From IMG/VR virus record IMGVR_UViG_2513237329_000013, positions 32,001 to 96,000 of that record: a stretch of 64,000 nt of DNA; one strand, written 5' to 3'. Both the position numbers and the translations under genes were made by a program. Below, in pieces: positions 6,916-62,899 of this stretch. Under the pieces are notes generated by a model. That model was not told the DNA's origin and searched no databases. It saw only the letters and a program-made list of their open reading frames with translations. Origin of the DNA: a virus. Its lineage: Duplodnaviria; Caudoviricetes. The first letter of the stretch is position 1, and every line of letters starts with the position of its first letter.

Positions 6916-8712
6916 TCAATTAAATAGTGGTACATACTCATACTCCGAACTATCCGACAACATATCGTGTTCAAGCATCTGAGCAAAATAATTACCGTAA
7001 GAGACCGAAGTATAGCGGTCTTTACGGTTGTTGTTGTTTACAATCTTAATAAGCCCTGTCTGTTCTCCACGCTCATATTCCAGATCAATCATCTCATTGA
7101 TAAGGGCAACCGTTTCAAGATATGGTCGCTCAAAGAAGAGCTGCGTGTCCACATCGGCAGTAGCATACTCAGGAATAAAGTTTGCAATTTCATCAACCGC
7201 CTCAGTATTACTAATTAACAGATCAATCATTCCGGAATTCAAAGCGTTTCTCATTGACTCAGCAATGTTGCTATTCGTTTCAAGCTGTGCTTTGATAATG
7301 TAAACATTTTCTTCTGCTCCAGCGATCTGAATACGATTAGCAACTTTCTCATCATTCATACATTTCCAAGGCTTATACTCCATATTGCGCTCTTCGTCAT
7401 ATAGAACCTTAGCAAGCATATCGTATACGGAAATACCTGCATTACGACCGTCCAAAACACAGTAATCCGCATTGAAATCAGTGTATAACTGCTTAATACG
7501 AATGGCCTGCTTGGTTGTTTCGCCGCCATGAACAGCCTCCATATAACTGACTTGCCGTCTATATCCACGCTTTACTTCGATATGTTCACCCTGAGTATCC
7601 ATAACTTTATACTCTTGGCTCTCCGGAAGTAAACGAATGCAAGAATAAATAGAGTTATCGGTGGCGTTACCGCCCTCCATAGCGATATCGCAAGACAAAA
7701 TACGAATTTCACCAACTTGCTTTGGAATATCATACTTGTTCTTCTGCTTCAAAAGCGCTTCGTCATTTCTTCTTGGATAGAAAGCTCTCTTCAATCTACG
7801 GTTACGATTAAGCTGTTCATAATTGAAGAAAGATTTTGCATTTTCCGCAATCATCTGGTTTTCATACTCAATCGCCCAGGAAATCGGATCGAGCTTCTTC
7901 CGTTCTTTGATCAAGAAGTTTCTCGTTTTGATATTGTGCTTCAGCGCAATGCTATAATCCATTGCAATTACGCACGAAGAACCATCTGTAAACATATCCT
8001 TAGTAAGAGTCTGGATGAGCTTCCACATCCAGTGGCTTTGATACCACGCAGAAGAAATATAAACTTCTTTTGGTTCTTCGACCATAGAAGAATACTCTGG
8101 AAGCTTCAGATAATCAGCCTGACGGATATATAGGAACGGCGAAAGAACACTATCAATGATATTCTTGACAATCATACGGAATTCTTCGTAGATCATTACG
8201 GTCGCACGATAACCACGAGCATTTTCATTTGCAGCAACAACAACAATGGAACTGCCATTCTTGAAAATCACTTCGATTTCATTTTGGTTATCTTTGAAAC
8301 TATCAATCTCAGCAGCCAATAACGGCGATTTTGGTATAAGCTCCTTTTTGATCTTCTCAGACACAATAAGACGAGCTTGCTTCTTGGTTGCAGACGCAAC
8401 AACAATTTTCGCCCCAGGTCGCAGAATAGCCTCTTTACATGCAAAGATAGCAATTAGAAATGATTTTGCCGCAGATCGCGCAGCGACAATACAAAAGCTC
8501 GGAACGAACTCCATCAAATACAAGATAATATGCTGATATAGATGAAGAACAATTCCAAAATAATGCTCTACAAATCTTGATGGGTTGCGACGATAGAATG
8601 TGATCCATTCCATAAGTCGCATAACATTCTCTGGCTTATGCAAATAATGCGTTGACGGAAAATGCTCATGTAGAGCAGCTTGCCGCTCATCCATTCTCTT
8701 GATATTATCCAT
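6916..8712 (-). CDS. Terminase large subunit (YonF-like)
   Basis: AARSAAKS Walker A-like, RGYRA..YEE Walker B-like, nuclease acidic motifs (CDIA, KDRY). Confidence 0.9.
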   Translation of the reverse strand: MDNIKRMDERQAALHEHFPSTHYLHKPENVMRLMEWITFYRRNPSRFVEHYFGIVLHLYQHIILYLMEFVPSFCIVAARSAAKSFLIAIFACKEAILRPGAKIVVASATKKQARLIVSEKIKKELIPKSPLLAAEIDSFKDNQNEIEVIFKNGSSIVVVAANENARGYRATVMIYEEFRMIVKNIIDSVLSPFLYIRQADYLKLPEYSSMVEEPKEVYISSAWYQSHWMWKLIQTLTKDMFTDGSSCVIAMDYSIALKHNIKTRNFLIKERKKLDPISWAIEYENQMIAENAKSFFNYEQLNRNRRLKRAFYPRRNDEALLKQKNKYDIPKQVGEIRILSCDIAMEGGNATDNSIYSCIRLLPESQEYKVMDTQGEHIEVKRGYRRQVSYMEAVHGGETTKQAIRIKQLYTDFNADYCVLDGRNAGISVYDMLAKVLYDEERNMEYKPWKCMNDEKVANRIQIAGAEENVYIIKAQLETNSNIAESMRNALNSGMIDLLISNTEAVDEIANFIPEYATADVDTQLFFERPYLETVALINEMIDLEYERGEQTGLIKIVNNNNRKDRYTSVSYGNYFAQMLEHDMLSDSSEYEYVPLFN

Positions 8713-11996: not shown

Positions 11997-12061
11997 AGAG
12001 CGCCTTGTTTGGCTGATCAGTTAAAAGTTGATTCCATAAATAAGGTTGCTGTATGCGCTCT
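11997..12061 (-). ncRNA. RCAGC-motif small RNA, copy B (Lys-UUU anticodon mimic)
   Basis: AGAGCGC-AT-ACAGCAAC...ATCAA-CTTTTAA-CTGAT...GCGCTCT. Confidence 0.75.
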
Positions 12062-12064
12062 TCG

Positions 12065-12147
12065 TGGTACGGGTAACAGGAATCGAACCTGCACGGTTGC
12101 CCACCAGATCCTAAATCTGGCGCGTCTGCCAGTTCCGCCATACCCGC
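12065..12147 (-). tRNA. tRNA-Leu(UAG)
   Basis: Loop TTTAGGA, variable arm, CCA. Confidence 0.95.
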
Positions 12148-12156
12148 ATATTTCCC

Positions 12157-15756: not shown

Positions 15757-16041
15757 TCATTCTCGAATACTTCTTAAAAGTTCTGCTCCGGACTTAAACA
15801 CGACATTCTGGAACTCCGGAACAACGATGCTCTCTTTCGTCACTGGATGAAGAGCTGGATGCGACTTATACTTTTTCACATCAAATGTTCCAAACCCATA
15901 AATCGAAACTCGATCTCCGTTTCTAAGAGCATTCGCAATTTCATCAAAGATATCGTCAACGATATCCTTGACCATATACTTCTTATACGCCTTATTCTTC
16001 TGAGCAAGCGTATTTACCAAATCTGCTTTATTGATATTCAT
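15757..16041 (-). CDS. hup: HU family DNA-binding protein
   Basis: NKADLV...GDRVSIYGFGTF...HPVTKE.I.VP...V.FK.G..L. Confidence 0.92.
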   Translation of the reverse strand: MNINKADLVNTLAQKNKAYKKYMVKDIVDDIFDEIANALRNGDRVSIYGFGTFDVKKYKSHPALHPVTKESIVVPEFQNVVFKSGAELLRSIRE

Positions 16042-17276
16042 GCTGATGTATCGCTCCTTTGCGGGCGATAACGAGTCGTATCAAAGTCAATATCGTAAAA
16101 TGCTTTGACACCATTATAATCACAGACGCAAACCAACTGTTGCTGCGCTCCATAAATGCGCTTTCCAACACAGTAGTCATCCATACCGAGAAAGCTGCCA
16201 GCCATAATCGTTTTCACGCCTTGAACACTATCGGTCTTATTGTGATGCAAATGACCTGAAAGAATGGCGTACACAGGTTCTTTTGCCATTGTCTGAAGCG
16301 ATTGAACTTTTCCAGCAGATCCATCATAATCGCCATGTACACCAAGATAAGTCTTGCCGCGAATATCAAGCAAATACATCGTATCGTCGATCTTTCTGTA
16401 ATGATCAAACGACACATTCTCAAAAGATTGTAGACGAGCTTTCAAATACCACTCAACTAAATCGTCAAGACGCTCATGAATCGAGGCAACATCTTTCTCT
16501 TCAAGCCGAGAATGATTCCCAGCAACAGAAGAAAAGTAAACATTCTTAAAGTACCGGCTTAATGTAGACAAAAACTCCGCAAGAAGTTCAGACACTCCAA
16601 CGACCTGTTGAATAACATTTTCTCTGTTCGACACGGCAATAGACTTATGAATATTTCCGCTAATCAAGTCTCCATTTGCCCATACATAACAACTTTCCGA
16701 TCCATGCAAGGCGGAGATTTCAAGGATGCGATCCAGATATTCATTAAGAAGTTGCACACAAACATCGGAATTATAGTAGTTCCAATAGTTGTCCACACAC
16801 GCTCCAAAATGCAAATCGTTTAAGCTTACAAGCAAATCGCTCCCGCTCGACTCCATTACACATGGAACATAGTCAAGCCGAGGAATTACACCAGAAGTAA
16901 TTGCCCTCTCAAAAATATCAGAGTTTTCATCCTTGCGAGCCAGGTCACGCACAACTTTATTAAGAGCATTTCTCTGGTCGAAAAACCGCTGGCGTTCTTT
17001 CTTGAATTCAAGCATCTTCTGCTCAATCTCGTCAAGATATGCACTTCCGAGATCTTGCGTAGCTTTCTGCTTGAAGTATTTCATCACATGATAGCCAGAA
17101 TACGGCGTTACATTCGCCGCTTTACGAAGGCTGTCGTAATGAACATCAAGACCAAGCAGGTCAACGATATCCGACCACTCTAAGTCAGAAGGGTTCTGCT
17201 CAACCTTTATTTCAATCAGTCGTAGGCCATACTCATAACTATCTTCGTTTTCAAGCTGTTTATATTTTGGATTCAA
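16038..17276 (-). CDS. Metallophosphoesterase (YonJ-like)
   Basis: DLHFG, GDLI, GNH, HGD, GHLH motifs. Confidence 0.88.
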   Translation of the reverse strand: MNPKYKQLENEDSYEYGLRLIEIKVEQNPSDLEWSDIVDLLGLDVHYDSLRKAANVTPYSGYHVMKYFKQKATQDLGSAYLDEIEQKMLEFKKERQRFFDQRNALNKVVRDLARKDENSDIFERAITSGVIPRLDYVPCVMESSGSDLLVSLNDLHFGACVDNYWNYYNSDVCVQLLNEYLDRILEISALHGSESCYVWANGDLISGNIHKSIAVSNRENVIQQVVGVSELLAEFLSTLSRYFKNVYFSSVAGNHSRLEEKDVASIHERLDDLVEWYLKARLQSFENVSFDHYRKIDDTMYLLDIRGKTYLGVHGDYDGSAGKVQSLQTMAKEPVYAILSGHLHHNKTDSVQGVKTIMAGSFLGMDDYCVGKRIYGAQQQLVCVCDYNGVKAFYDIDFDTTRYRPQRSDTSA

Positions 17277-18003: not shown

Positions 18004-20778
18004 TCATGCGACGCTACGCTGACGTCGTTTCTTCTCACGCTCATAATTGCGAATATGGATAGCCTGACAGTCATCGCAGCGCTTCTTATTTTTCACGATA
18101 CCGTCTACCTCAAACTCTTTTCCACAATCAATACACCGCAGTTTCTTTTTGCCGAGTGGGTGATATCCAGAGCAGCTCGTACATACCTTTTGCTGCGGTG
18201 AAAGAGGAACAAAACGCTCTCCACATTTCTTGCACTGAATAGAACCATCTGGGATATTTCGCTTGAGGTTTTCCAGAACGATATCACCAAAGCACATCCA
18301 GAAAACATTTTTCCTACGGCTATTCTTACTATGAAATAGATATTTCACAAGAATGTCGCAAACATCTAAGCGCTCAAGACAAATCTCGTCGAATTGCTTC
18401 AAGATATTGTCCCGAATATATGCAAAGTTCGAGTCATCATCATAAAAGCTGATCGAATAGCGATACTGCTTTTCCACATCATTGTACAGGTCAGTCACAG
18501 ACGATAGTAACTCAACCTGTTTCATCGGGTTACTAAGCATATACTGATATCTGAAGACACCAATATTCTTCGCGGCAAAAGACATCCGCTTATTAGGAAC
18601 GATGTGTTCAAGCTGATTCACAACACTATTGTTCATTCGCTGAACCTGAAATTTTGTTTTCTTTTTAGCGTGGATAAAAAAATGCGGCGCTTTCATACTC
18701 GTAATTCTTGCAAGACGAGCATTGATTTCATCTGGTCGAGTTGGCTTATACAGCGTCTTGGCATAGTCGATACAGAAGTTATTCTCCATACATAAGATTT
18801 TAATTGCTTCTATGTCAACATCCTCACCGTTCCAAATCTTCGTAATATCATTGCTAATAACACCGATATTGCCACCAGTCCATGCGGCGCGAAGCCCTTT
18901 GAAAATTTCCTCTGGTGTAATCGTAACAGCGCCAGCCTTTGCCATCTCGTAGTATAAAGGAACGATTCCTTCCATATTGCGCTCAGCAATAGACACAAGT
19001 AAGGAATCAGCGCATACGAGACTTTTATCTCCGTCGCAATCAAATTGTAGGATCTTTGAAATTAGATCATGACAGCTCGTATAGATAGCATTTTGAGAAA
19101 ACCACTTTTTCGTTGCACTGGTTACAACATTTTTACGAACAGCATGTTCACGATATAAGTGGGGTGAACGCAGACAGTCCAATTTACTCACTGTGCGATA
19201 AAGATAGCAAGACACCTCTCCATCTGCAAGCAAGCCAACAGGACTGCGATTTCCAAGAAACAGCCATTCGCAGAAAGCATAGAGATCTGGAATCAAGAAC
19301 ATATACTTTGCGCTCAAATCAATCTTTGCTGCTCTTGCCTCAGTAACAAGATTCTTCTTGATTTGCCGTAGCATCTCTTTTGTGTATGGGTCGGAGAGCA
19401 ATTCCGGATAGATACTAAGACACTCCTGAAAAGCATTCTTATTGCGATACTGTGTAGAAGCCCCGAACACATCCAGCATAGTATTCTTATCCGATGCAAT
19501 TTTAGCAATTTTGTCAATCGTCTTTCCAGCAAGCTGCTCAAGTTCATCTGTACTCAAATCTGTGAGTGTTTGAAGCATTTGATAGTTAAGCTTTGCATCA
19601 GGAATGAAGTCCTCTTCCTCATTACACTTACCGACAGTGCATCCATTTGCTAAAAACAAATCAATGTACTCTTGCCAATTCGCGTAATACTTGTACATCT
19701 TAAATTGACTTTTTGTAAAAATGACCTGGATACCCTCTGCGATTACATCATGTTCAAAACCATAGATGTCTGTTACCAAACCATGATTTACGGACGGATC
19801 GCGTTCGTTTGATTCTAAGATAAACTTATCAAACGGGAATACAGCAAGAAGCCCTTTTACCCACGGAAGACGAACCATAGTGTTTTTTGCATTACAAGAG
19901 GGAAGAACCATTCCGCAGCCATCCGTATGTGTAATTGGAATCTCCATATCTCTGCGCTCAACACTGTATGTTTTGTGATCAATAAAATCAACAGTTCCAC
20001 CAACCATCGTTTCCATATCATCTACAACGATAGTCTTTCTAATATCGAAATCTTCCCACAAATCAGTTGCGCTATTGCACAGTGCAAGATACGCCAGATA
20101 CTTATTGATATTGATTCCACCAAGCTCGTTGATTTTTTGAACGCTCAGTCCACACATAATGGTTTTTTGATACTTCTCCCAAACTCTTTCCTTAATGAAA
20201 ACAGTTTTCTTTGTTCTGATCTGTCCAGCAGATGCCGTAAAACAAATGTAGCGTTCTCCGTTAAAGGTATACCCATTTAGGATAAGATCTTCAATCACAT
20301 CGAAATAATATGTGCGAATAACCATGAAATCGTCATACAGCTTTCCTGTTTCCATGCCAAGTGTTCTTGTAAGCATCGACTCAAAAACAGAAATCACATT
20401 CTTATCAACCACATATTCAGTCCGTAACTCACGTTGCGAGCGATGTGCTTGAAGAAGTGATACAAGTTCAGACTTCTTAATCTTAATCATCTGGTTCGTA
20501 CCGCGAATTTCTTTCGCAATCTGTTTTACACGGGAACTATCCATCGCAACAGAAATCGGATCTGACTTTCCCATGCCATACAATTTACGAAACTGAGATT
20601 CAGCCTTCTCTTGTGTTATTTCTCCAGCACACAGCCGCTCAATAATTTCTCGCTCTGATTTTAATTTCGATTTTGAAGAGCAGTGCTTATTGATCTCAAC
20701 CTCAAGTGCCTTTTCTTCGTCGGTGTAAAACGCACTCGTGTCAAAACTATAAATATGGATTTGCCGATCAAGACTAAT
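18004..20778 (-). CDS. yonO: Single-subunit DNA-dependent RNA polymerase, YonO family (ATT start inferred)
   Basis: RSPHLYREH and catalytic FDCDGD; frame open to 20778 encoding QIHIYSFDTSAFY, resembling the YonO N-terminus; C-terminal Zn ribbons. Confidence 0.9.
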   Translation of the reverse strand: MSLDRQIHIYSFDTSAFYTDEEKALEVEINKHCSSKSKLKSEREIIERLCAGEITQEKAESQFRKLYGMGKSDPISVAMDSSRVKQIAKEIRGTNQMIKIKKSELVSLLQAHRSQRELRTEYVVDKNVISVFESMLTRTLGMETGKLYDDFMVIRTYYFDVIEDLILNGYTFNGERYICFTASAGQIRTKKTVFIKERVWEKYQKTIMCGLSVQKINELGGININKYLAYLALCNSATDLWEDFDIRKTIVVDDMETMVGGTVDFIDHKTYSVERRDMEIPITHTDGCGMVLPSCNAKNTMVRLPWVKGLLAVFPFDKFILESNERDPSVNHGLVTDIYGFEHDVIAEGIQVIFTKSQFKMYKYYANWQEYIDLFLANGCTVGKCNEEEDFIPDAKLNYQMLQTLTDLSTDELEQLAGKTIDKIAKIASDKNTMLDVFGASTQYRNKNAFQECLSIYPELLSDPYTKEMLRQIKKNLVTEARAAKIDLSAKYMFLIPDLYAFCEWLFLGNRSPVGLLADGEVSCYLYRTVSKLDCLRSPHLYREHAVRKNVVTSATKKWFSQNAIYTSCHDLISKILQFDCDGDKSLVCADSLLVSIAERNMEGIVPLYYEMAKAGAVTITPEEIFKGLRAAWTGGNIGVISNDITKIWNGEDVDIEAIKILCMENNFCIDYAKTLYKPTRPDEINARLARITSMKAPHFFIHAKKKTKFQVQRMNNSVVNQLEHIVPNKRMSFAAKNIGVFRYQYMLSNPMKQVELLSSVTDLYNDVEKQYRYSISFYDDDSNFAYIRDNILKQFDEICLERLDVCDILVKYLFHSKNSRRKNVFWMCFGDIVLENLKRNIPDGSIQCKKCGERFVPLSPQQKVCTSCSGYHPLGKKKLRCIDCGKEFEVDGIVKNKKRCDDCQAIHIRNYEREKKRRQRSVA

Positions 20779-49853: not shown

Positions 49854-49909
49854 ACGACGCGAACAGCAATTTTCTTACATATATTTGGGTTATATCGTAC
49901 ATGCGTCGT
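49854..49909 (+). ncRNA. RCAGC-motif small RNA, copy E (Pro-UGG mimic)
   Basis: ACGACGC-GA-ACAGCAAT...ATATA-TTTGGGT-TATAT...GCGTCGT. Confidence 0.78.
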
Positions 49910-49937: not shown

Positions 49938-50117
49938 GTGAAGCTGAAGTTCAATGTTGGTGATCGTGTTTTTGATAAGAAGTACGGTCATGGTGTGGTT
50001 CAGAGAGTTGATGCTGGAAACAGCGAGTTCCCGTATCTTATCTTCTACGAAGATGGGACGAAGATCTGGTATAAGGCAAAGGGTGTAACTCTTGCCCCTG
50101 CGGAACAGCAGGATTAA
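49938..50117 (+). CDS. 59-aa Tudor/SH3-like protein (PcrA/UvrD C-terminal-domain-like)
   Basis: KFNVGDRVFDKKYGHGVV; GTG start, RBS GGAGG; not in the ORF track. Confidence 0.65.
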   Translation: MKLKFNVGDRVFDKKYGHGVVQRVDAGNSEFPYLIFYEDGTKIWYKAKGVTLAPAEQQD

Positions 50118-50127
50118 GTAAGTTAGA

Positions 50128-50184
50128 AAGACGCAAACAGCAATCTAACAAAATCAAACTTGAAATTTGACAGATAAGCGTCTT
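50128..50184 (+). ncRNA. RCAGC-motif small RNA, copy F (Ser-UGA mimic)
   Basis: AAGACGC-AA-ACAGCAAT...TCAAA-CTTGAAA-TTTGA...GCGTCTT. Confidence 0.8.
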
Positions 50185-50196
50185 GTGGTGTGATAT

Positions 50197-50287
50197 GGAG
50201 TAGTAATCCTAACTGGTAAGGAAGTAGTTTGCTAAACTACCAGTAATCGGGAACGATGTGCAGGTTCGAGTCCTGTCTACTCCGCCA
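50197..50287 (+). tRNA. tRNA-Ser(GCU)
   Basis: Loop TTGCTAA, variable arm, CCA. Confidence 0.92.
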
Positions 50288-50291
50288 ACAA

Positions 50292-50442
50292 AAGCAAGTA
50301 GACAAAGAGAAAGTCTGTTCGCAATCGAAGCCGGCAATCATTGATTATTTTGTCCGCTTTCTTCACGGTAACTGCATGGCAGGAGTGCGAATACAAAACA
50401 GATTGGGTTCTGTTGTATGGGAGCGTGGCCTATACCTTGCTT
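50292..50442 (+). ncRNA. Putative ~150-nt structured RNA
   Basis: Closing AAGCAAG/CTTGCTT; TCACGGTA and ATACAA/TTGTATGG as in 12157-12310. Confidence 0.45.
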
Positions 50443-50449
50443 GATATAT

Positions 50450-50536
50450 GCTGATGTGATGGAACTGGCATACATGGGGGACTTAAAATCCCCCGCCGAT
50501 TGTGGATTATGGGTTCGACTCCCATCATCAGCACCA
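50450..50536 (+). tRNA. tRNA-Leu(UAA)
   Basis: Loop CTTAAAA, variable arm, CCA. Confidence 0.93.
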
Positions 50537-50617
50537 GCCGTTGTGATGATCGGCTTTCATCTCCTTCTTTGTGTGACGGTGGGACAGACCACTACTGCCG
50601 TGTAAGTGCGGCATAAA

Positions 50618-50730
50618 TGAGGGCGTCTGGATGACAGCTTTAAGGTGTATCGAACGGCGGACACCTACAGCAATGTTCTTTAAGAAAACTGGAATTTTTC
50701 TGCTTGCGGGTTCGATTCCCGTAGCTCTCA
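50618..50730 (+). ncRNA. tRNA-like RNA with RCAGC insert, copy G (Ser-GGA loop)
   Basis: Acceptor TGAGGGC/GCTCTCA, T loop TTCGATT, ACAC-CT-ACAGCAAT, AGAAAA-CTGGAAT-TTTTCT. Confidence 0.7.
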
Positions 50731-50799
50731 AAGCCGTTAAATAATCTTCTCGAATTGGTGAGCAATTCACAACTTCTCTGGGAAGATGTAATAAGAAAT

Positions 50800-50910
50800 G
50801 CAGAGGTAGCTCAGTCGGTAGAGCATCAGACAAAAAATGTGCTAAGCATTAGCACTAACAGCAATGTTAAAGGAATCCGAGTGTCGGAGGTTCGAGTCCT
50901 CCCCTCTGCG
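50800..50910 (+). ncRNA. tRNA-like RNA with RCAGC insert in the anticodon loop, copy H
   Basis: Canonical acceptor, D and T arms; GTGCTAA/TTAGCAC-TA-ACAGCAAT inserted. Confidence 0.8.
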
Positions 50911-50917
50911 TCTATAT

Positions 50918-50989
50918 TCGTGTGTAACATTTACGAAAGTACACCGTGGATGCGATTGGTATATGTCAGTTCGATTCTGACCGCACGAG
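50918..50989 (+). ncRNA. Degenerate tRNA-like element
   Basis: Acceptor TCGTGTG/CGCACGA and T arm intact; D and anticodon arms aberrant. Confidence 0.5.
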
Positions 50990-50997
50990 CCTATAAT

Positions 50998-51112
50998 GCC
51001 AGGGTAGCTCAACTGGTAGAGCGCGTAATAATGCGACTTGTTAAGCCGCTTACAGCAAATTTCTTTTGGTCTGTTAAACCCGTGGTTGCAGGTTCGATTC
51101 CTGCCCCTGGCT
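50998..51112 (+). ncRNA. tRNA-Asn(GUU)-like RNA with RCAGC insert in the anticodon stem, copy I
   Basis: CG-[hairpin-TT-ACAGCAAA]-GGT-CTGTTAA-ACCCG; canonical D and T arms. Confidence 0.8.
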
Positions 51113-51198
51113 CAACGTGAATGACTGCTTAAACCATTCTAAACCGACACGACAAAAGGGTAGAAATGGTGACAGCTCGGAGAGACGGGCATCTATAT

Positions 51199-51316
51199 AC
51201 GGCAGTGGTGAAGCGGTAACACAGCAGCCATACAAATGCGAAAAGTGGATTTTCGCTAACAGCTATTTCACACTCCAAGCTGCCAATCGTAGGTTCGATT
51301 CCTACCTGCCGTTCCA
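51199..51316 (+). ncRNA. tRNA-Gly(UCC)-like RNA with RCAGC insert in the anticodon loop, copy J
   Basis: GCAGC-[GCGAAAA/TTTTCGC-TA-ACAGCTAT]-CTCCAA-GCTGC; ends U73-CCA. Confidence 0.8.
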
Positions 51317-51376
51317 CGGGTATAGAGTTGACTTTTCCGTTCAAACAGCCCCTTATAAAGTTGGTAGTAACGGTAT

Positions 51377-51440
51377 GAGACGCACACAGCAATTTGTAAG
51401 TAAAGTATTTGGCCTGATAAGCGGATTTCTTTTGCGTCTC
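51377..51440 (+). ncRNA. RCAGC-motif small RNA, copy K (Ile-GAU mimic)
   Basis: GAGACGC-AC-ACAGCAAT...TTGGC-CTGATAA-GCGGA...GCGTCTC. Confidence 0.78.
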
Positions 51441-51450
51441 GCCCCCTCCT

Positions 51451-51490
51451 TTAAGACACAAACAGCATCGAGTGTGAAATGGTGTCTTGA
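51451..51490 (+). ncRNA. RCAGC-motif minimal copy L in the DUF2828 leader
   Basis: AAGACAC-AA-ACAGCATC...GTGTCTT, 53 nt before the start codon. Confidence 0.65.
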
Positions 51491-51543
51491 AGGCTATTTC
51501 AAGCGAAAAGAAATTAGTTAAACAATTCAAGGAGGAAGTAGGT

Positions 51544-53088
51544 ATGAGTGGTTTTATGTCTGCTATGAAAAGCACTTTGAACGATGAGTTCAATGTTTCT
51601 GTTACTGAGAACGGTGCTATTGGCTATCGCACTACTGGCAAGGAACTGTTGGATCTCAACTTTGCCGTTGCATCTCTTCGTAAGGCATCTCCGAGCGATA
51701 TTGCAAATCGTTTCGTCAGAGCGTTTTTCGAGGATAAGATCACGGCAATGAAATGGCTGTTCTTTGCGCGTGATGTTCGTGGAGGTCTTGGTGAACGCCG
51801 TTTGTTCCGCATTGTGTTTCAGCGCATGGCTGAGGAAAATCCGGAATACATCATTCCGCTGCTTCCTCTCGTTCCTGAGTATGGACGCTATGATGACCTG
51901 TGGTGTTTGTTTGATACAAAGCTTGCACCTAATGTACTGAACATCATTGCGCAGCAGCTCCGCGAGGACATTCAGAACTTGAGTGATGGCAATGGTATTT
52001 CTCTTCTCGCAAAGTGGCTTCCGTCTGCGAATGCTCATTCCGCTGACGCAAAGCGTTATGCTAAGCAGATTTACAAGTTTATGGGCATTTCTGAGCGCGA
52101 CTACCGTAAGGTGCTGTCCAAGCTGCGTTCTAAGCTGGATATCGTGGAGAAGAAAATGTCCGAAAAGCGTTGGGATGAGATTGCGTATGAAGCTGTCCCG
52201 TCTCGTGCAAATCTGATTTACAACTCTGCGTTCCTTCGTAACGACGAAGATCGTCGCCGTGATTTCCTATCCCGTTTGGAAAAGGGCGAAACGAAAATCA
52301 ATGCGTCTACGCTTTTCCCGCATGACATTGTTGCAAAGTATAGCGATGGTTGGCGTGGTCTGAAGCCTACGGATAAGACGCTTGAAGCTCTTTGGAACGC
52401 GCTTCCCGATACCGTAAACGGATGCGGCAATACAATTGTTGTTGCGGATGGCAGCGGCAGTATGACCGTGAATGTTGGCGGCGGCAATGTTACTGCGCTG
52501 GCTGTGGCAAACGCGCTTGCAATTTATTTCGCAGAGCGTTCCTCTGGTCAGTTCAAGGATAATTACATTACATTTTCTGAGCGTCCTCAGCTCGTCGATT
52601 TGAGTAAGGGTAAGAATCTCCGTGAGAAGATTCAGATTGCGCTTAAACACAGCGAGGTAGCAAACACAAATATCGAAGCGGTGTTTGATCTTATCCTGAC
52701 TACGGCAAAGAAAAACAATATGGAACAGAGCGACCTTCCCGCAAACATCCTTATTATCTCCGATATGGAGTTTGACTACTGCGCAACATCGAATGGCGGA
52801 AGCCGATATACTCGTGGTAGTGTTGATTCTCGTCTGTTTGACAAGATTGCAAAGCGCTACGAGGACGCTGGGTATAAGTTACCAAGGCTTGTGTTCTGGA
52901 ATGTGAATAGCCGCACGAATACTATTCCTATTAAGGAAAACGAGATGGGAGTTGCGCTTGTAAGCGGTTTTAGCCCGAACATCGCAAAGATGGTGATGAG
53001 CGGTCAAACCGATCCGTATGAGTGCTTGCTTGAAACGCTGAACTCTGATCGTTATAAGCCTATCGGTGACGCTCTGGAAAATCAGTAA
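51544..53088 (+). CDS. DUF2828 family protein (helical domain + vWA, Ro60/TROVE-like)
   Basis: ARDVRGGLGER, YGRYDD, AKWLPS, MIDAS DGSGSM, T, SDMEFD, VFWNV; RBS AGGAGG. Confidence 0.88.
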   Translation: MSGFMSAMKSTLNDEFNVSVTENGAIGYRTTGKELLDLNFAVASLRKASPSDIANRFVRAFFEDKITAMKWLFFARDVRGGLGERRLFRIVFQRMAEENPEYIIPLLPLVPEYGRYDDLWCLFDTKLAPNVLNIIAQQLREDIQNLSDGNGISLLAKWLPSANAHSADAKRYAKQIYKFMGISERDYRKVLSKLRSKLDIVEKKMSEKRWDEIAYEAVPSRANLIYNSAFLRNDEDRRRDFLSRLEKGETKINASTLFPHDIVAKYSDGWRGLKPTDKTLEALWNALPDTVNGCGNTIVVADGSGSMTVNVGGGNVTALAVANALAIYFAERSSGQFKDNYITFSERPQLVDLSKGKNLREKIQIALKHSEVANTNIEAVFDLILTTAKKNNMEQSDLPANILIISDMEFDYCATSNGGSRYTRGSVDSRLFDKIAKRYEDAGYKLPRLVFWNVNSRTNTIPIKENEMGVALVSGFSPNIAKMVMSGQTDPYECLLETLNSDRYKPIGDALENQ

Positions 53089-61459: not shown

Positions 61460-62899
61460 ATGTACGCAGCATATGTAACTCGTATTAAGAATTTGCGCAA
61501 ACATTCAAACGCGGATCGACTTCTCTGCGGTGAATGTTTTGGCAATACGGTAATTGTGGGCTTGGATACAAAGCCAGAAGAGCTTGGTGTTTATTTCCCC
61601 GTAGATGGCAAGCTTGGAACTGAGTATGCGGTGAAGAATGACCTGCTTCGGCGTAAGGATGAAAACGGTAAGCCGGCTGGTGGTTATCTCGATCCTGAAA
61701 AGCGCAATATTAAGGCGTTGAAGCTTCGTGGCGAAAAGAGCGATGGCTTGTTTATGCCGTTGTCCAGTTTGAACGGGTTTACGGATATTGCAAAGCTCCG
61801 TGAGGGCGATGTAATTACCATTTTGAATGGTGTCACAATTTGTGAGAAGTATATCCCACGTCGTAAGAAGAGTACCATTATGGTTGGGGGGGGTAGGACT
61901 CGTAAGCATCACGATCCTATTGCCCCGCTCTTTGCGGAACATGCTGACACGGAACAGCTTGCATATAACCTCAGCGCATTTCACCAAGGCGATCTTGTTG
62001 AGATTACTTTGAAAATGCACGGTACATCTCAGCGAACCGGATATCTGCCAACGCTTAAAGGATATAAGAGGACATTGCTTGATAAACTCCTACATCGCGT
62101 TGGTTCTCCGATTTATAATTGGGGATATGTAACTGGCACTCGTCGTGTTGTTCTGGATGATTTTGACGGCGGCTTCTATGGCAGCAATGCTTTCCGTGAA
62201 CAGCATAGCAAGGTTTTTGAAGGTAAGCTTCATAAGGGCGAAACCGTGTACTATGAAGTCGTTGGCTTTACGCAAGACAAGCAGCCTATTATGGCATCTT
62301 GCGACAATAAAAAAGTCGGTGATAAGGAATTTGTTAAACAATACGGAGAAAAGACAGTGTTTAGCTATGGTTGCTATCCGGACGGTGTAAAGGAAGTAAC
62401 AAATCCGAAAATTACATACGCAACAGTAATGATTGGCGATACCTCTTTTACAGCAAATGAGATTACGGAATATGAATCTGCTCCGCAGTCTGATTTTTAT
62501 GTGTATCGAATGACGATGACAAATGAGGATGGCGATGTTGTCGAATACACACCTGACTTTATGCGTTATCGTTGTGAGCAGATGGGTGTTAAGTGCGTTC
62601 CGCTATTCGCTCGATTCATCATTCCGGATTACATCCAGCTTCCTGATGCTGTTGGATCTCCGATGGCTGTCAATGCTGGCGAATATGTCAAGGAGATTGC
62701 CGAAAACTTCTATGATGGTGCAGACCCGATTGGTAAGTCGCATGTCCGAGAGGGCGTTGTTTGCCGTATCGTAAACCGCCCAAAGTTTACAGCATATAAG
62801 CACAAGAATTTTGCATTCAAGGTACTTGAGGGAATTGTAAAGGATATTGCGTCTGCTCCGGACATGGAAGAAGCGCAGGATGAGACAAGCGCCGCGTAA
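61460..62899 (+). CDS. RNA ligase (Rnl2/DRB0094-like) with N-terminal tRNA-binding OB fold
   Basis: HSNADRL, LRGEKSDG, motif I KMHGTS, YYEVVG, FYVY, REGVV, YKHKN. Confidence 0.85.
   Translation: MYAAYVTRIKNLRKHSNADRLLCGECFGNTVIVGLDTKPEELGVYFPVDGKLGTEYAVKNDLLRRKDENGKPAGGYLDPEKRNIKALKLRGEKSDGLFMPLSSLNGFTDIAKLREGDVITILNGVTICEKYIPRRKKSTIMVGGGRTRKHHDPIAPLFAEHADTEQLAYNLSAFHQGDLVEITLKMHGTSQRTGYLPTLKGYKRTLLDKLLHRVGSPIYNWGYVTGTRRVVLDDFDGGFYGSNAFREQHSKVFEGKLHKGETVYYEVVGFTQDKQPIMASCDNKKVGDKEFVKQYGEKTVFSYGCYPDGVKEVTNPKITYATVMIGDTSFTANEITEYESAPQSDFYVYRMTMTNEDGDVVEYTPDFMRYRCEQMGVKCVPLFARFIIPDYIQLPDAVGSPMAVNAGEYVKEIAENFYDGADPIGKSHVREGVVCRIVNRPKFTAYKHKNFAFKVLEGIVKDIASAPDMEEAQDETSAA

What the first reader, a model, noticed from the sequence alone, without database searches (positions are those of the whole stretch)
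50618..51316. Chimeric tRNAs carrying a circularly permuted copy of the motif in the anticodon arm
Seen: four tRNA scaffolds (50618, 50800, 50998, 51199) have intact acceptor and T arms. Each carries a ~40-nt insert made of an A-rich linker, a hairpin ending CRC, 2 nt, ACAGC(A/T)A and a U-rich linker. The insertion point differs: anticodon loop (H, J), 5' strand of the anticodon stem (I), or in place of the D region (G). Here the helix is closed as a local hairpin rather than enclosing the payload, so it is a permutation of the stand-alone form. Normal Asn and Gly tRNAs exist separately in the left array. Inference: these are either tagged tRNA mimics tethered to DUF2828, or a new mini-intron class excised and rejoined by the phage ligase to give conditionally activated tRNAs.
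Basis: partly seen in the sequence, partly recalled or inferred. Interest (0 to 1): 0.85.

Follow-up and report, generated by a model that had tools for sequence, protein, structure and literature searches.

The report
Handle-tagged tRNA mimics for Ro60-like protein
Four tRNA-shaped genes in this gut prophage each carry a small conserved RNA "handle" beside the anticodon; they are most likely unspliced tRNA mimics that dock the Ro60-like protein encoded just downstream, which would make them an undescribed, inside-out relative of the Y RNAs.

Summary
Windows 50619-50730 (G), 50800-50910 (H), 50998-51112 (I) and 51199-51316 (J) are tRNA scaffolds. Each carries a hairpin ending CRC, 2 nt, ACAGC(A/T)A and a U-rich tail. 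The graft replaces the D region (G), sits in the 5' part of the anticodon loop (H, J), or sits between nt 28 and 29 of the anticodon stem (I).

The same four types recur upstream of the DUF2828 gene in about 70 viral contigs whose DUF2828 is 55-99% identical. The tRNA arms and the handle hairpin both covary. The handle has the same logo as the stand-alone stem-ACAGCAA RNAs found beside DUF2828 in Bacillus, Listeria, Staphylococcus, Enterococcus, Mycobacterium and E. coli phages.

An RNA-first scan found 38 viral records with such chimeras. Of these, 31 encode DUF2828, including all 8 that are at least 90% complete. The DUF2828 model matches Ro60 structures.

Best reading: these are Y-RNA-like partner RNAs with a tRNA body, not introns. 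The graft boundaries are not fixed, J lacks U33, and the same handle occurs outside tRNAs. Binding, expression and function are untested.

The scan reached the same reading earlier on other DNA. I found no publication describing it.

The parts
50619..50730 (+). Chimera G. Acceptor stem 50619-24 / 50724-29. The 5' segment UCUGGAUGACAGC (50626-38) stands where the D arm would be. Handle hairpin GGUGU 50644-48 / ACACC 50661-65. ACAGCAA 50667-73. Anticodon-like stem-loop 50683-50701 (loop CUGGAAU, GGA). T arm 50706-22.
   Evidence: In family alignment A4 of 20 homologues the hairpin, the anticodon-like stem and the T arm all covary.
50800..50910 (+). Chimera H. Full acceptor, D and T arms. Anticodon stem UCAGA 50826-30 / UCCGA 50876-80, with one A.C mismatch. 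A 45-nt loop holds the A-rich linker, the handle hairpin GUGCUAA 50839-45 / UUAGCAC 50849-55, UA, ACAGCAA 50858-64, a linker, and ends AAAGGAA.
   Evidence: Rfam tRNA 52.6 bits; fold; homologues; coordinates.
50998..51112 (+). Chimera I. tRNA-Asn-like body. A 42-nt graft (51026-51067) lies between nt 28 and 29 of the anticodon stem and holds the hairpin GCGACUU 51033-39 / AAGCCGC 51043-49, UU, and ACAGCAA 51052-58. The 7-nt loop CUGUUAA (51071-77, GUU) is intact on a 2+3 bp stem.
   Evidence: Rfam tRNA 46.8 bits. In alignment A3 of 26 homologues the hairpin and the 3 loop-proximal stem pairs covary. Coordinates.
51199..51316 (+). Chimera J. tRNA-Gly-like body with an encoded U73-CCA end (51313-16). 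Anticodon stem GCAGC 51224-28 / GCUGC 51279-83. A 50-nt loop holds the hairpin GCGAAAA 51238-44 / UUUUCGC 51250-56, UA, ACAGCUA 51259-65, and ends ACUCCAA (UCC, with C at position 33).
   Evidence: Rfam tRNA 48.6 bits. In alignment A2 of 20 homologues 15 of 28 pairs show double changes, including in the anticodon stem and the hairpin. L001 has a G-C to A-U swap in the anticodon stem.
49854..49908 (+). Stand-alone handle RNA: ACGACGC-GA-ACAGCAA-payload-GCGUCGU. The payload has a Pro-like 7-nt loop UUUGGGU.
50128..50184 (+). Stand-alone handle RNA: AAGACGC-AA-ACAGCAA-payload-GCGUCUU. The payload hairpin UCAAA-CUUGAAA-UUUGA has the triplet UGA.
51377..51440 (+). Stand-alone handle RNA: GAGACGC-AC-ACAGCAA-payload-GCGUCUC.
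51453..51488 (+). Short stand-alone handle variant: AAGACAC-AA-ACAGCAU-...-GUGUCUU.
   Evidence: (z = -3.5).
51544..53088 (+). DUF2828/DUF7788 (vWA) protein of 514 aa, with a Ro60-like fold. It is the presumed partner of the handle.
   Evidence: Pfam PF11443 and PF25043; phrog_850 'RNA-binding protein'. The AlphaFold model has pLDDT 71.6, and its top 13 PDB matches are all Ro60/TROVE, E 2e-9 to 5e-6, aligned over the full length.
61460..62899 (+). RNA ligase, a possible functional associate.
   Evidence: phrog_968, E 2.4e-64. Its homologue lies about 1.3 kb downstream of DUF2828 in 15 related loci.

Best explanation
G, H, I and J are tRNA-bodied members of a family of phage small RNAs that share a handle. 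The handle is one helix end (GYG...CRC), 2 nt, single-stranded ACAGCAA, and a short U-rich tail.

Shown here: the tRNA arms and the handle hairpin are under selection as RNA on the + strand. The handle is the same motif as in the stand-alone stem-ACAGCAA RNAs. Handle RNAs and DUF2828 genes co-occur whichever one is used as the search query. DUF2828 has the Ro60 ring-plus-vWA fold.

Inferred: the tRNA scaffold gives the RNA defined, stable ends through RNase P, RNase Z and CCA addition. J encodes its own CCA. DUF2828 docks on the helix end plus ACAGCAA. This can work whether the helix is closed by the RNA termini (stand-alone form) or by a loop (grafted form). The RNP then carries a complete tRNA shape with an anticodon-like triplet 6-14 nt downstream of the handle.

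This mirrors bacterial YrlA, where a tRNA-like domain hangs on the Ro60-binding stem, but with the opposite topology: here the RNA ends lie in the acceptor stem.

Most likely purpose (weakest step): to bring the Ro60-like protein together with factors that recognise tRNAs. Candidates are host anticodon nucleases, as bait or decoy, and the phage's own tRNA repair enzymes. The grafts are not removed.
For: 1. tRNA scaffolds: Rfam hits of 46.8-52.6 bits.
2. Conservation: all four types recur on the + strand just upstream of DUF2828 in contigs with DUF2828 at 55-99% identity. ARAGORN insert-bearing tRNAs there, and 116 unique ones hold ACAGC[AT].
3. Covariation: it is seen in the acceptor, D, T and anticodon stems and in the handle hairpin. 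Of the 116, 62 have exactly 7 contiguous base pairs ending 2 nt before ACAGC. There are 63 distinct stems, and offset controls average about 3.3 bp. G.U pairs are common in the hairpins, so the + strand RNA is what folds.
4. Same logo in 154 stand-alone and 116 grafted handles.
5. Stand-alone handles flank DUF2828 in 7 of 8 distant phages examined: FADO, EF1, LMTA-34, Tsamsa, 6ec, Faith1 and Alf5.
6. In six whole viral records the motif occurs almost only in clusters: one directly upstream of DUF2828, and in three records a second on the opposite strand, which in the window's own genome is the tRNA array. Two isolated hits were seen in G005. The reversed control gave 0.
7. RNA-first test: 31 of 38 records found by the pattern handle-hairpin plus T arm encode DUF2828, and 8 of 8 that are at least 90% complete do. 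The base rate is 711 of 50,697 phage records.
8. The DUF2828 model matches Ro60 structures.
9. Precedent: Ro60 partners YrlA and Yrn1 mimic tRNA (PMC4201824). A Ro60-like gp130 that lies directly upstream of the tRNA genes of a Felixounavirus counters the Ppl defence (bioRxiv 10.1101/2024.10.10.617714). DUF2828 has the same position in Felixounavirus Alf5.
10. Canonical Asn(GUU) and Gly(UCC) tRNAs exist in the same phage.
Against: No binding, expression or processing data exist. No RNA run holding the locus was found, and the contigs laid on it look like DNA.

The partner could be another conserved neighbour rather than DUF2828. An RNA ligase and a Metallophos 'exonuclease' also recur nearby.

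In the PhageMaP preprint, gp130 alone, expressed from a plasmid or from T7 without its phage's RNAs, countered Ppl. So at least one activity of the protein may not need these RNAs. I did not verify by sequence that gp130 is a DUF2828 protein.

Type I would become a flawless tRNA-Asn if the graft were excised, and J keeps Gly-like identity elements plus CCA. A decoding role after processing is therefore not excluded.

The DUF2828 model is of moderate confidence (pLDDT 71.6, TM about 0.45 to Ro60).
Confidence: 0.68

Rival explanations
1. Mini-introns. The grafts are excised, by an unknown nuclease possibly guided by DUF2828, and the halves are rejoined by the phage RNA ligase. This would give conditionally activated tRNAs.
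For: Excising 51026-51067 from I gives a perfect tRNA-Asn(GUU) anticodon arm, and this holds across 26 homologues. Some H-type relatives end their loop with a canonical AUGGGGA. The phage has an RNA ligase, which is adjacent to DUF2828 in 15 relatives. Related phages also carry other 47-83 nt inserts placed inside otherwise normal anticodon loops, so interrupted tRNA genes are a theme in this group.
Against: The graft position differs by type: D region, nt 28/29, nt 31/32, nt 32/33. No junction motif is shared; the conserved part is internal. J-type RNAs have A or C, not U, at position 33, and the window's H ends AAAGGAA, so no precise excision gives a standard loop. G has no D arm to restore. 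The identical handle occurs in 154 stand-alone RNAs with no tRNA exons. Canonical Asn and Gly tRNAs are present. No joined form was seen in the contigs laid, but those were probably DNA, so this says little.
Confidence: 0.08
2. The grafted RNAs still work as tRNAs. The handle, with or without bound DUF2828, shields the anticodon arm from host anticodon nucleases while the tRNA goes on decoding.
For: The L-shape determinants are intact: U8, G18G19, the T-loop UUCGA, and covarying stems. J encodes CCA. I has a canonical 7-nt loop. Phage tRNAs are known to evade anticodon nucleases through changes in the loop (PMC10264068, PMC11555353).
Against: Anticodon loops of 45-50 nt without U33 (H, J) and a 42-nt branch on the anticodon stem (I) are hard to reconcile with the ribosomal A and P sites; this rests on established structural knowledge and was not tested. 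G lacks a D arm. Canonical isoacceptors are already encoded.
Confidence: 0.07
3. The hairpins are features of the other strand or of the DNA, such as minus-strand intrinsic terminators or protein-binding or recombination sites. In this reading the chimeras are decaying tRNA genes invaded by a mobile module.
For: On the minus strand the H and J hairpins score as terminator-like, because of the A-rich linker on the + strand. Indels of whole modules occur between close relatives.
Against: The terminator count is no higher than in shuffles: 4 found against 3.9 expected. Many hairpin pairs are G.U on the + strand, which would be A.C mismatches on the minus strand. The motif is strictly co-oriented with the tRNAs and DUF2828. 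All tRNA arms keep pairing through compensatory changes across contigs with 55-99% identical DUF2828, which decaying genes would not do.
Confidence: 0.03

Closest known systems
YrlA-type Y RNAs with Ro60/Rsr of bacteria and mycobacteriophages (Rfam RF02553; Chen et al. 2014, PMC4201824)
   Same: A small RNA is encoded next to, and on the same strand as, a ring-plus-vWA protein. It combines a protein-binding helix with a tRNA-like domain that has D and T arms.
   Different: In YrlA the RNA ends lie in the Ro60-binding stem, the acceptor is closed by a loop, and the motif is GNCGAAN0-1G. Here the ends lie in the acceptor stem, the binding helix is closed by a loop, and the motif is CRC-NN-ACAGCAA. 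The anticodon triplet, or a whole anticodon loop, is kept. The protein is DUF2828/DUF7788, not Pfam TROVE. RF02553 scores 21 bits against a 69-bit cut-off.
Deinococcus radiodurans Yrn1 and the Thermus phage phiLo Ro60-Yrl1/Yrl2 complex (PMC4201824, PMC12135203)
   Same: These are Y-like RNAs encoded upstream of the Ro60 gene. Binding was shown biochemically, and the complex is tethered to an exoribonuclease (PNPase).
   Different: Those RNAs have a 5'-3' stem with a CGAA bulge and no full tRNA body. Nothing comparable has been shown biochemically for DUF2828.
Stand-alone stem-ACAGCAA RNAs beside DUF2828 (uncatalogued; seen in this window and in FADO, Tsamsa, LMTA-34, EF1, 6ec, Faith1, Alf5)
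   Same: They share the logo RRGRCRC-NN-ACAGCAA-NUU, the 7-bp helix, and the neighbourhood.
   Different: In the stand-alone form the helix is closed by the RNA termini and encloses a payload of 10-134 nt. In G to J it is a local hairpin grafted into a tRNA.
Bas63 gp130, a Ro60-like counter-defence protein of a Felixounavirus (bioRxiv 10.1101/2024.10.10.617714)
   Same: A Ro60-like protein is encoded directly upstream of the phage tRNA stretch. The authors guessed that some of those 'tRNAs' are Y RNAs.
   Different: No RNA motif or partner RNA was identified there, and gp130 worked without its phage's RNAs. Family identity with DUF2828 is inferred from the gene's position in Alf5, not tested.
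tRNA introns (bacterial group I; archaeal and eukaryal BHB introns)
   Same: Extra sequence lies in the anticodon arm of an otherwise good tRNA gene.
   Different: The grafts are 38-43 nt, far below group I size. The positions vary and include the D region. There is no conserved junction. The conserved element is internal and also occurs outside tRNAs.

Membership tests
tRNA (RF00005) | Cloverleaf scoring above the Rfam gathering cut-off | tested here: met
   H 52.6, J 48.6 and I 46.8 bits against 29. G is not hit, because it lacks a D arm.
tRNA (RF00005) | Uninterrupted 5-bp anticodon stem with a 7-nt loop, U33 and a purine at 37 | tested here: not met
   H has a 45-nt loop ending AAAGGAA. 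J has a 50-nt loop with C33. I has a canonical loop but a 42-nt branch in the stem.
YrlA Y RNA (RF02553) | Score at or above the family's gathering cut-off (69 bits) | tested here: not met
   The best match is 21.3 bits, E 0.43, in a register that spans two neighbouring elements.
YrlA Y RNA (RF02553) | Ro60-binding motif GNCGAAN0-1G in the terminal stem (PMC4201824) | tested here: not met
   The conserved motif is CRC-NN-ACAGCAA. Only the hairpin loop of G contains UCGAAC, without the required G.
YrlA Y RNA (RF02553) | Encoded within a few kb of, and co-oriented with, a Ro60 (TROVE) gene | tested here: inconclusive
   The neighbour is DUF2828/DUF7788, with no Pfam TROVE hit at E <= 0.01. Its model does match Ro60 structures over the full length.
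ACAGCAA-handle RNAs associated with DUF2828 (uncatalogued) | Helix of about 7 bp ending CRC, 2-nt spacer, ACAGC(A/U)A, U-rich tail | tested here: met
   All four chimeras have it. The logo is identical to that of the stand-alone members.
ACAGCAA-handle RNAs associated with DUF2828 (uncatalogued) | Genomic linkage to a DUF2828 gene | tested here: met
   The chimeras lie 230-925 nt upstream of DUF2828. In the RNA-first test, 31 of 38 records and 8 of 8 near-complete ones have DUF2828.
ACAGCAA-handle RNAs associated with DUF2828 (uncatalogued) | Physical binding to DUF2828 | not testable with these tools
   This needs RIP, CLIP or EMSA.
Group I tRNA intron | A ribozyme core of 200 nt or more (P1-P9) | tested here: not met
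   The grafts are 38-43 nt. There was no Rfam intron hit at E <= 1.
BHB (archaeal-type) tRNA intron | Bulge-helix-bulge at both junctions, and a splicing endonuclease | not tested
   I noted only that the junction positions differ between types and share no sequence. I made no formal search for BHB motifs or for the endonuclease.

The most novel reading that the evidence does not exclude
The phage keeps a panel of tRNA and anticodon-loop baits, four grafted tRNAs plus several stand-alone handle RNAs with different triplets, all plugged by one universal handle into a Ro60-like ring. The RNP would intercept, or report on, host nucleases that cut tRNA anticodon loops, or hand cut loops to the phage RNA ligase. 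The displayed triplets would change quickly between related phages as the targets change.
Probability: 0.25. Interest if true: 0.88.

Novelty: new variant of a known kind. Interest (0 to 1): 0.72.

Why it matters
Ro60 and Y RNA are a long-studied but functionally murky RNP. DUF2828 proteins occur in at least 711 sequenced phages, including model phages such as Felix O1-like, A511/P100-like, Tsamsa and cluster L mycobacteriophages, and no RNA partner is known for them. A short, easily mutated handle gives a direct experimental grip through EMSA, CLIP and cryo-EM. So does a natural series of RNAs that place a whole tRNA, an anticodon loop or nothing next to that handle.

If the RNP acts on tRNA-targeting defences or on tRNA repair, it would link three current topics: phage tRNA arrays, anticodon-nuclease immunity, and Ro60 biology. 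There is also an annotation consequence. These genes are either missed by tRNA finders or called as intron-containing tRNAs with arbitrary anticodons.

Tried and rejected
- **RNA evidence.** No RNA holder was listed for window 50100-51560. The four runs laid were contigs that look like DNA. They showed no joined form, only the 144-nt strain variant at 50994/50995. This says nothing about expression or splicing.
- **Matching to canonical tRNAs.** I tested whether the triplet shown by each chimera matches a canonical tRNA in the same locus. The result was 14 of 80 against 11.1 +/- 2.3 in shuffles, which is not significant. The loci are only +/-4 kb, so the test is weak.
- **Variability in close relatives.** Chimeras against spacers gave a mixed result. 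Two 'spacers' are even more conserved than the chimeras, so I did not use this as evidence.
- **Sequence search of DUF2828 against PDB chains.** No hit at E <= 1. The relation to Ro60 appears only at the fold level.
- **Eight distant DUF2828 phages (L008-L015).** Within +/-5 kb I found stand-alone handles in 7 of 8 but no grafted tRNAs. L008 showed no clean handle.
- **Kin search.** The genome search does not draw relatives for a virus record.
- **Burroughs and Aravind 2016 (NAR 44:8525).** The paper is not held. My recollection that it treats DUF2828 as TROVE-like is unverified.
- **Bas63 record.** A guessed accession turned out to be another phage, so gp130 was not compared by sequence.

Full report
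**Setting.** The window is part of a 127-kb provirus record. It has a 21-tRNA array on the minus strand at 9.7-15.7 kb and a second RNA-gene array on the plus strand at 49.8-51.5 kb. The second array ends at a 514-aa gene (51544-53088) that matches Pfam DUF2828 and DUF7788/vWA, and PHROG 850 'RNA-binding protein'. An RNA ligase (phrog_968) lies at 61460-62899. A YonO-like RdRP-fold polymerase lies at 18004-20583.

Rfam's tRNA model hits 50800-50910 (H), 50998-51112 (I) and 51199-51313 (J) at 46.8-52.6 bits, with insertions of 44-55 nt in the anticodon region. ARAGORN sees them only when introns are allowed, and then gives arbitrary anticodons.

- G (50619-50730) has an acceptor stem, a T arm and an anticodon-like stem-loop, but no D arm.
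- Each of the four contains a hairpin whose 3' strand ends CRC, then 2 nt, then ACAGC(A/T)A (coordinates).
- CRCNNACAGCW occurs 12 times in the window against 1.5 expected.
- In the whole provirus a longer form occurs 9 times, all in the two RNA arrays. The reversed control gave none.

**Anatomy from comparison.** A profile of DUF2828 homologues retrieved 75 further viral contigs with DUF2828 at 55-75% identity, plus 7 at 95-99%. ARAGORN with introns allowed finds 232 insert-bearing tRNAs in them. All are on the DUF2828 strand, and nearly all lie within 1.6 kb upstream of the gene. Of these, 116 unique ones hold ACAGC[AT]. Four types recur.

- **J-type.** These are tRNA-Gly-like bodies with a covarying 5-bp anticodon stem, for example A-U in 10 and G-C in 9 sequences at one pair. 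The graft follows nt 32. The loop ends UCCAA or GCCAA, but position 33 is A or C. Several encode CCA.
- **I-type.** These bodies carry the graft between nt 28 and 29 of the anticodon stem. The 7-nt loop is intact (U33, A37, A38), and the three loop-proximal pairs covary. The triplet is usually GUU, but UUU, UCU, UGU, GCU and UGA also occur.
- **H-type.** The graft lies at the 5' edge of the loop, which ends AUGGGGA, AUGGGAA or AAAGGAA.
- **G-type.** About 35 unique members have a conserved 5' segment GUCYGG-N-GRCAG in place of the D arm, then a 4-5 bp handle hairpin with a conserved loop, then ACAGCAA, then a covarying anticodon-like stem with a 7-nt loop, then the T arm.

In the close relatives, one compensatory G-C to A-U change falls in J's anticodon stem.

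**The handle.** In 62 of the 116 unique chimeras the hairpin has exactly 7 contiguous pairs ending 2 nt before ACAGC. There are 63 different stems. At other offsets the mean stem is about 3.3 bp. The logo is C(-5) R(-4) C(-3) N N ACAGCAA N N U U. The 154 unique stand-alone elements in the same loci give the same logo. In those, a 7-bp stem is closed by the RNA ends and encloses a payload with a median of 38 nt.

The helix end and its 3' single strand are the same; only the closed end of the helix differs. G.U pairs are frequent in the hairpins, which fixes the folded strand as the + strand RNA. This argues against the minus-strand terminator look of two hairpins.

**Link to DUF2828, tested in both directions.**

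- *Protein first.* Stand-alone handles with perfect, covarying 7-bp stems lie next to DUF2828 in Bacillus FADO and Tsamsa, Enterococcus EF1, Listeria LMTA-34, Staphylococcus 6ec, Mycobacterium Faith1 and E. coli Alf5.
- *Whole genomes.* In five further viral records of 55-170 kb the motif occurs almost only in clusters: one directly upstream of DUF2828, and in two records a second cluster on the opposite strand. Two isolated hits were seen in G005. Controls gave 0.
Among the first 80 loci, 48 matches have a hairpin of at least 5 bp in register. Of the 38 records holding these, 31 encode DUF2828, and all 8 that are at least 90% complete do. Several of those proteins are distant relatives, including ones in phages of about 400 kb. 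The base rate among sequenced phages is 711 of 50,697.

**The protein.** Sequence search against PDB finds nothing. An AlphaFold model (pLDDT 71.6, pTM 0.60) has Ro60/TROVE structures as its 13 best PDB matches, aligned over the full length with E 2e-9 to 5e-6. They include Xenopus, human, Deinococcus and Thermus-phage Ro60. vWA/MIDAS domains follow.

**Interpretation.** Ro60 proteins bind Y RNAs. Bacterial YrlA and Yrn1 contain tRNA-like domains that are modified and processed like tRNAs (PMC4201824). A phage Ro60 binds two Y-like RNAs encoded upstream of its gene (PMC12135203).

The simplest reading is that the handle is the docking site of the Ro60-like DUF2828, and that G to J are partner RNAs with a tRNA body. 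They are the inverse of YrlA: the RNA ends lie in the acceptor stem and the protein-binding helix is capped by a loop. They are not members of RF02553 (21 bits against a 69-bit cut-off; the GNCGAA motif is absent).

A preprint reports that the Ro60-like gp130 of a Felixounavirus, encoded directly upstream of the tRNA genes, counters the Ppl defence. It guesses that some of those tRNAs are Y RNAs (10.1101/2024.10.10.617714). In Felixounavirus Alf5 the gene in that position is DUF2828, followed by three stand-alone handles. In that study gp130 worked without its phage's RNAs, so the role of the RNAs is open.

The anticodon loop shape is conserved (U33, A37) while the triplets vary. The phage RNA ligase lies nearby, directly downstream of DUF2828 in 15 relatives. 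These facts make a role around tRNA-targeting nucleases or tRNA repair attractive, but that step is inference.

**Why not introns.**

- The graft positions differ by type, and no junction motif is shared.
- In J-type RNAs and in the window's H, no precise excision gives a loop with U33.
- G has no D arm to restore.
- The same handle is found in RNAs without tRNA parts.
- Canonical Asn(GUU) and Gly(UCC) tRNAs are encoded elsewhere in the phage.

Only I-type RNAs would become perfect tRNAs after excision. No RNA data could be obtained, so the intron model is disfavoured but not excluded.

**Earlier notes of this scan.** Earlier notes on other genomes describe the same handle-in-tRNA arrangement and reach the same reading. 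A note on this genome describes the stand-alone units in the left array. I used them as leads only; the tests above are my own. I found no published description of the ACAGCAA handle or of tRNAs carrying it.

Noticed in passing
window 50918-50988 (+): A fifth, minimal tRNA-like element lies between H and I. It has a 7-bp acceptor stem (UCGUGUG/CGCACGA) and a T arm (50965-81), and a hairpin GUGUA...UACAC followed by CG-UGGAUGC instead of the ACAGCAA motif. It may be a decayed or variant handle. It is kept in all 7 close relatives.
   Followed up: partly
L002:3308-3452 (and L003-L007), inserted at window 50994/50995: Close relatives carry an extra 144-nt element with an acceptor stem (GCGGUG/CACCGC) and a T arm, a large non-tRNA body, and no clear ACAGCAA. 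One metagenome contig shows the same variant.
   Followed up: partly
L005:2078-2495 (also L006, L007), at window ~50195: A roughly 417-nt insertion carrying a small ORF sits at the 5' end of tRNA-Ser(GCU). It is flanked by a duplicated ATATGGAGTAGT and looks like a small mobile gene that targets the tRNA gene.
   Followed up: no
L043:5786-5921, L034:5597-5729, L048:5785-5908, L064:6370-6502, L037:8562-8684, L038:8033-8155, L077:8996-9127: Related phages have a second class of interrupted tRNAs. Inserts of about 47-56 nt lie inside otherwise normal anticodon loops (Leu UAA, Pro UGG, Glu UUC, Thr UGU). They lack the handle but share a hairpin with a 7-nt loop (GGCAGUA or GUCAUCA) and a 3' ...ACCA(U/A). 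Removing them would restore perfect loops. There is no Rfam family. These are better candidates for a real mini-intron.
   Followed up: partly
L027:931-1074; L048:2001-2142; L032:2819-2959: These tRNAs (His GUG, Thr UGU, Ser UGA) have anticodon-loop inserts of 49-71 nt that themselves contain an acceptor-like stem plus a T arm. In effect a tRNA minihelix is nested inside a tRNA.
   Followed up: no
L101:~1300-1420; L134:~1900-2030 and ~12030-12150 (minus strand); L140:~7500-7620: A further topology: the closing stem of the handle doubles as the acceptor stem, and the payload is an anticodon-like loop plus a T arm with no D arm. This shows a continuum between stand-alone handles and tRNA chimeras.
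   Followed up: partly
window 51113-51198 (+): The 86-nt 'spacer' between I and J is invariant in all 8 aligned relatives, which makes it more conserved than the chimeras. It contains GGUGACAGC, like the 5' segment GGAUGACAGC of G. It may be another functional RNA or part of J's precursor.
   Followed up: no
related loci, e.g. L026:6842, L049:6831, L061:6832: In 15 related contigs the homologue of the window's RNA ligase (61460-62899) lies about 1.3 kb downstream of DUF2828. A homologue of the Metallophos 'exonuclease' (window 16038-17276, next to the left tRNA array) lies beside DUF2828 in FADO, Tsamsa and 6ec.
   Followed up: partly
window 18004-20583 (-): An 859-aa ORF matches Pfam RdRP (PF05183, E 4e-15). 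This is the fold of the YonO-type single-subunit RNA polymerase of SPbeta-like phages.
   Followed up: no
L048:1887-1998: A drum RNA (RF02958, 59 bits) lies directly in front of an insert-bearing tRNA in a related phage.
   Followed up: no
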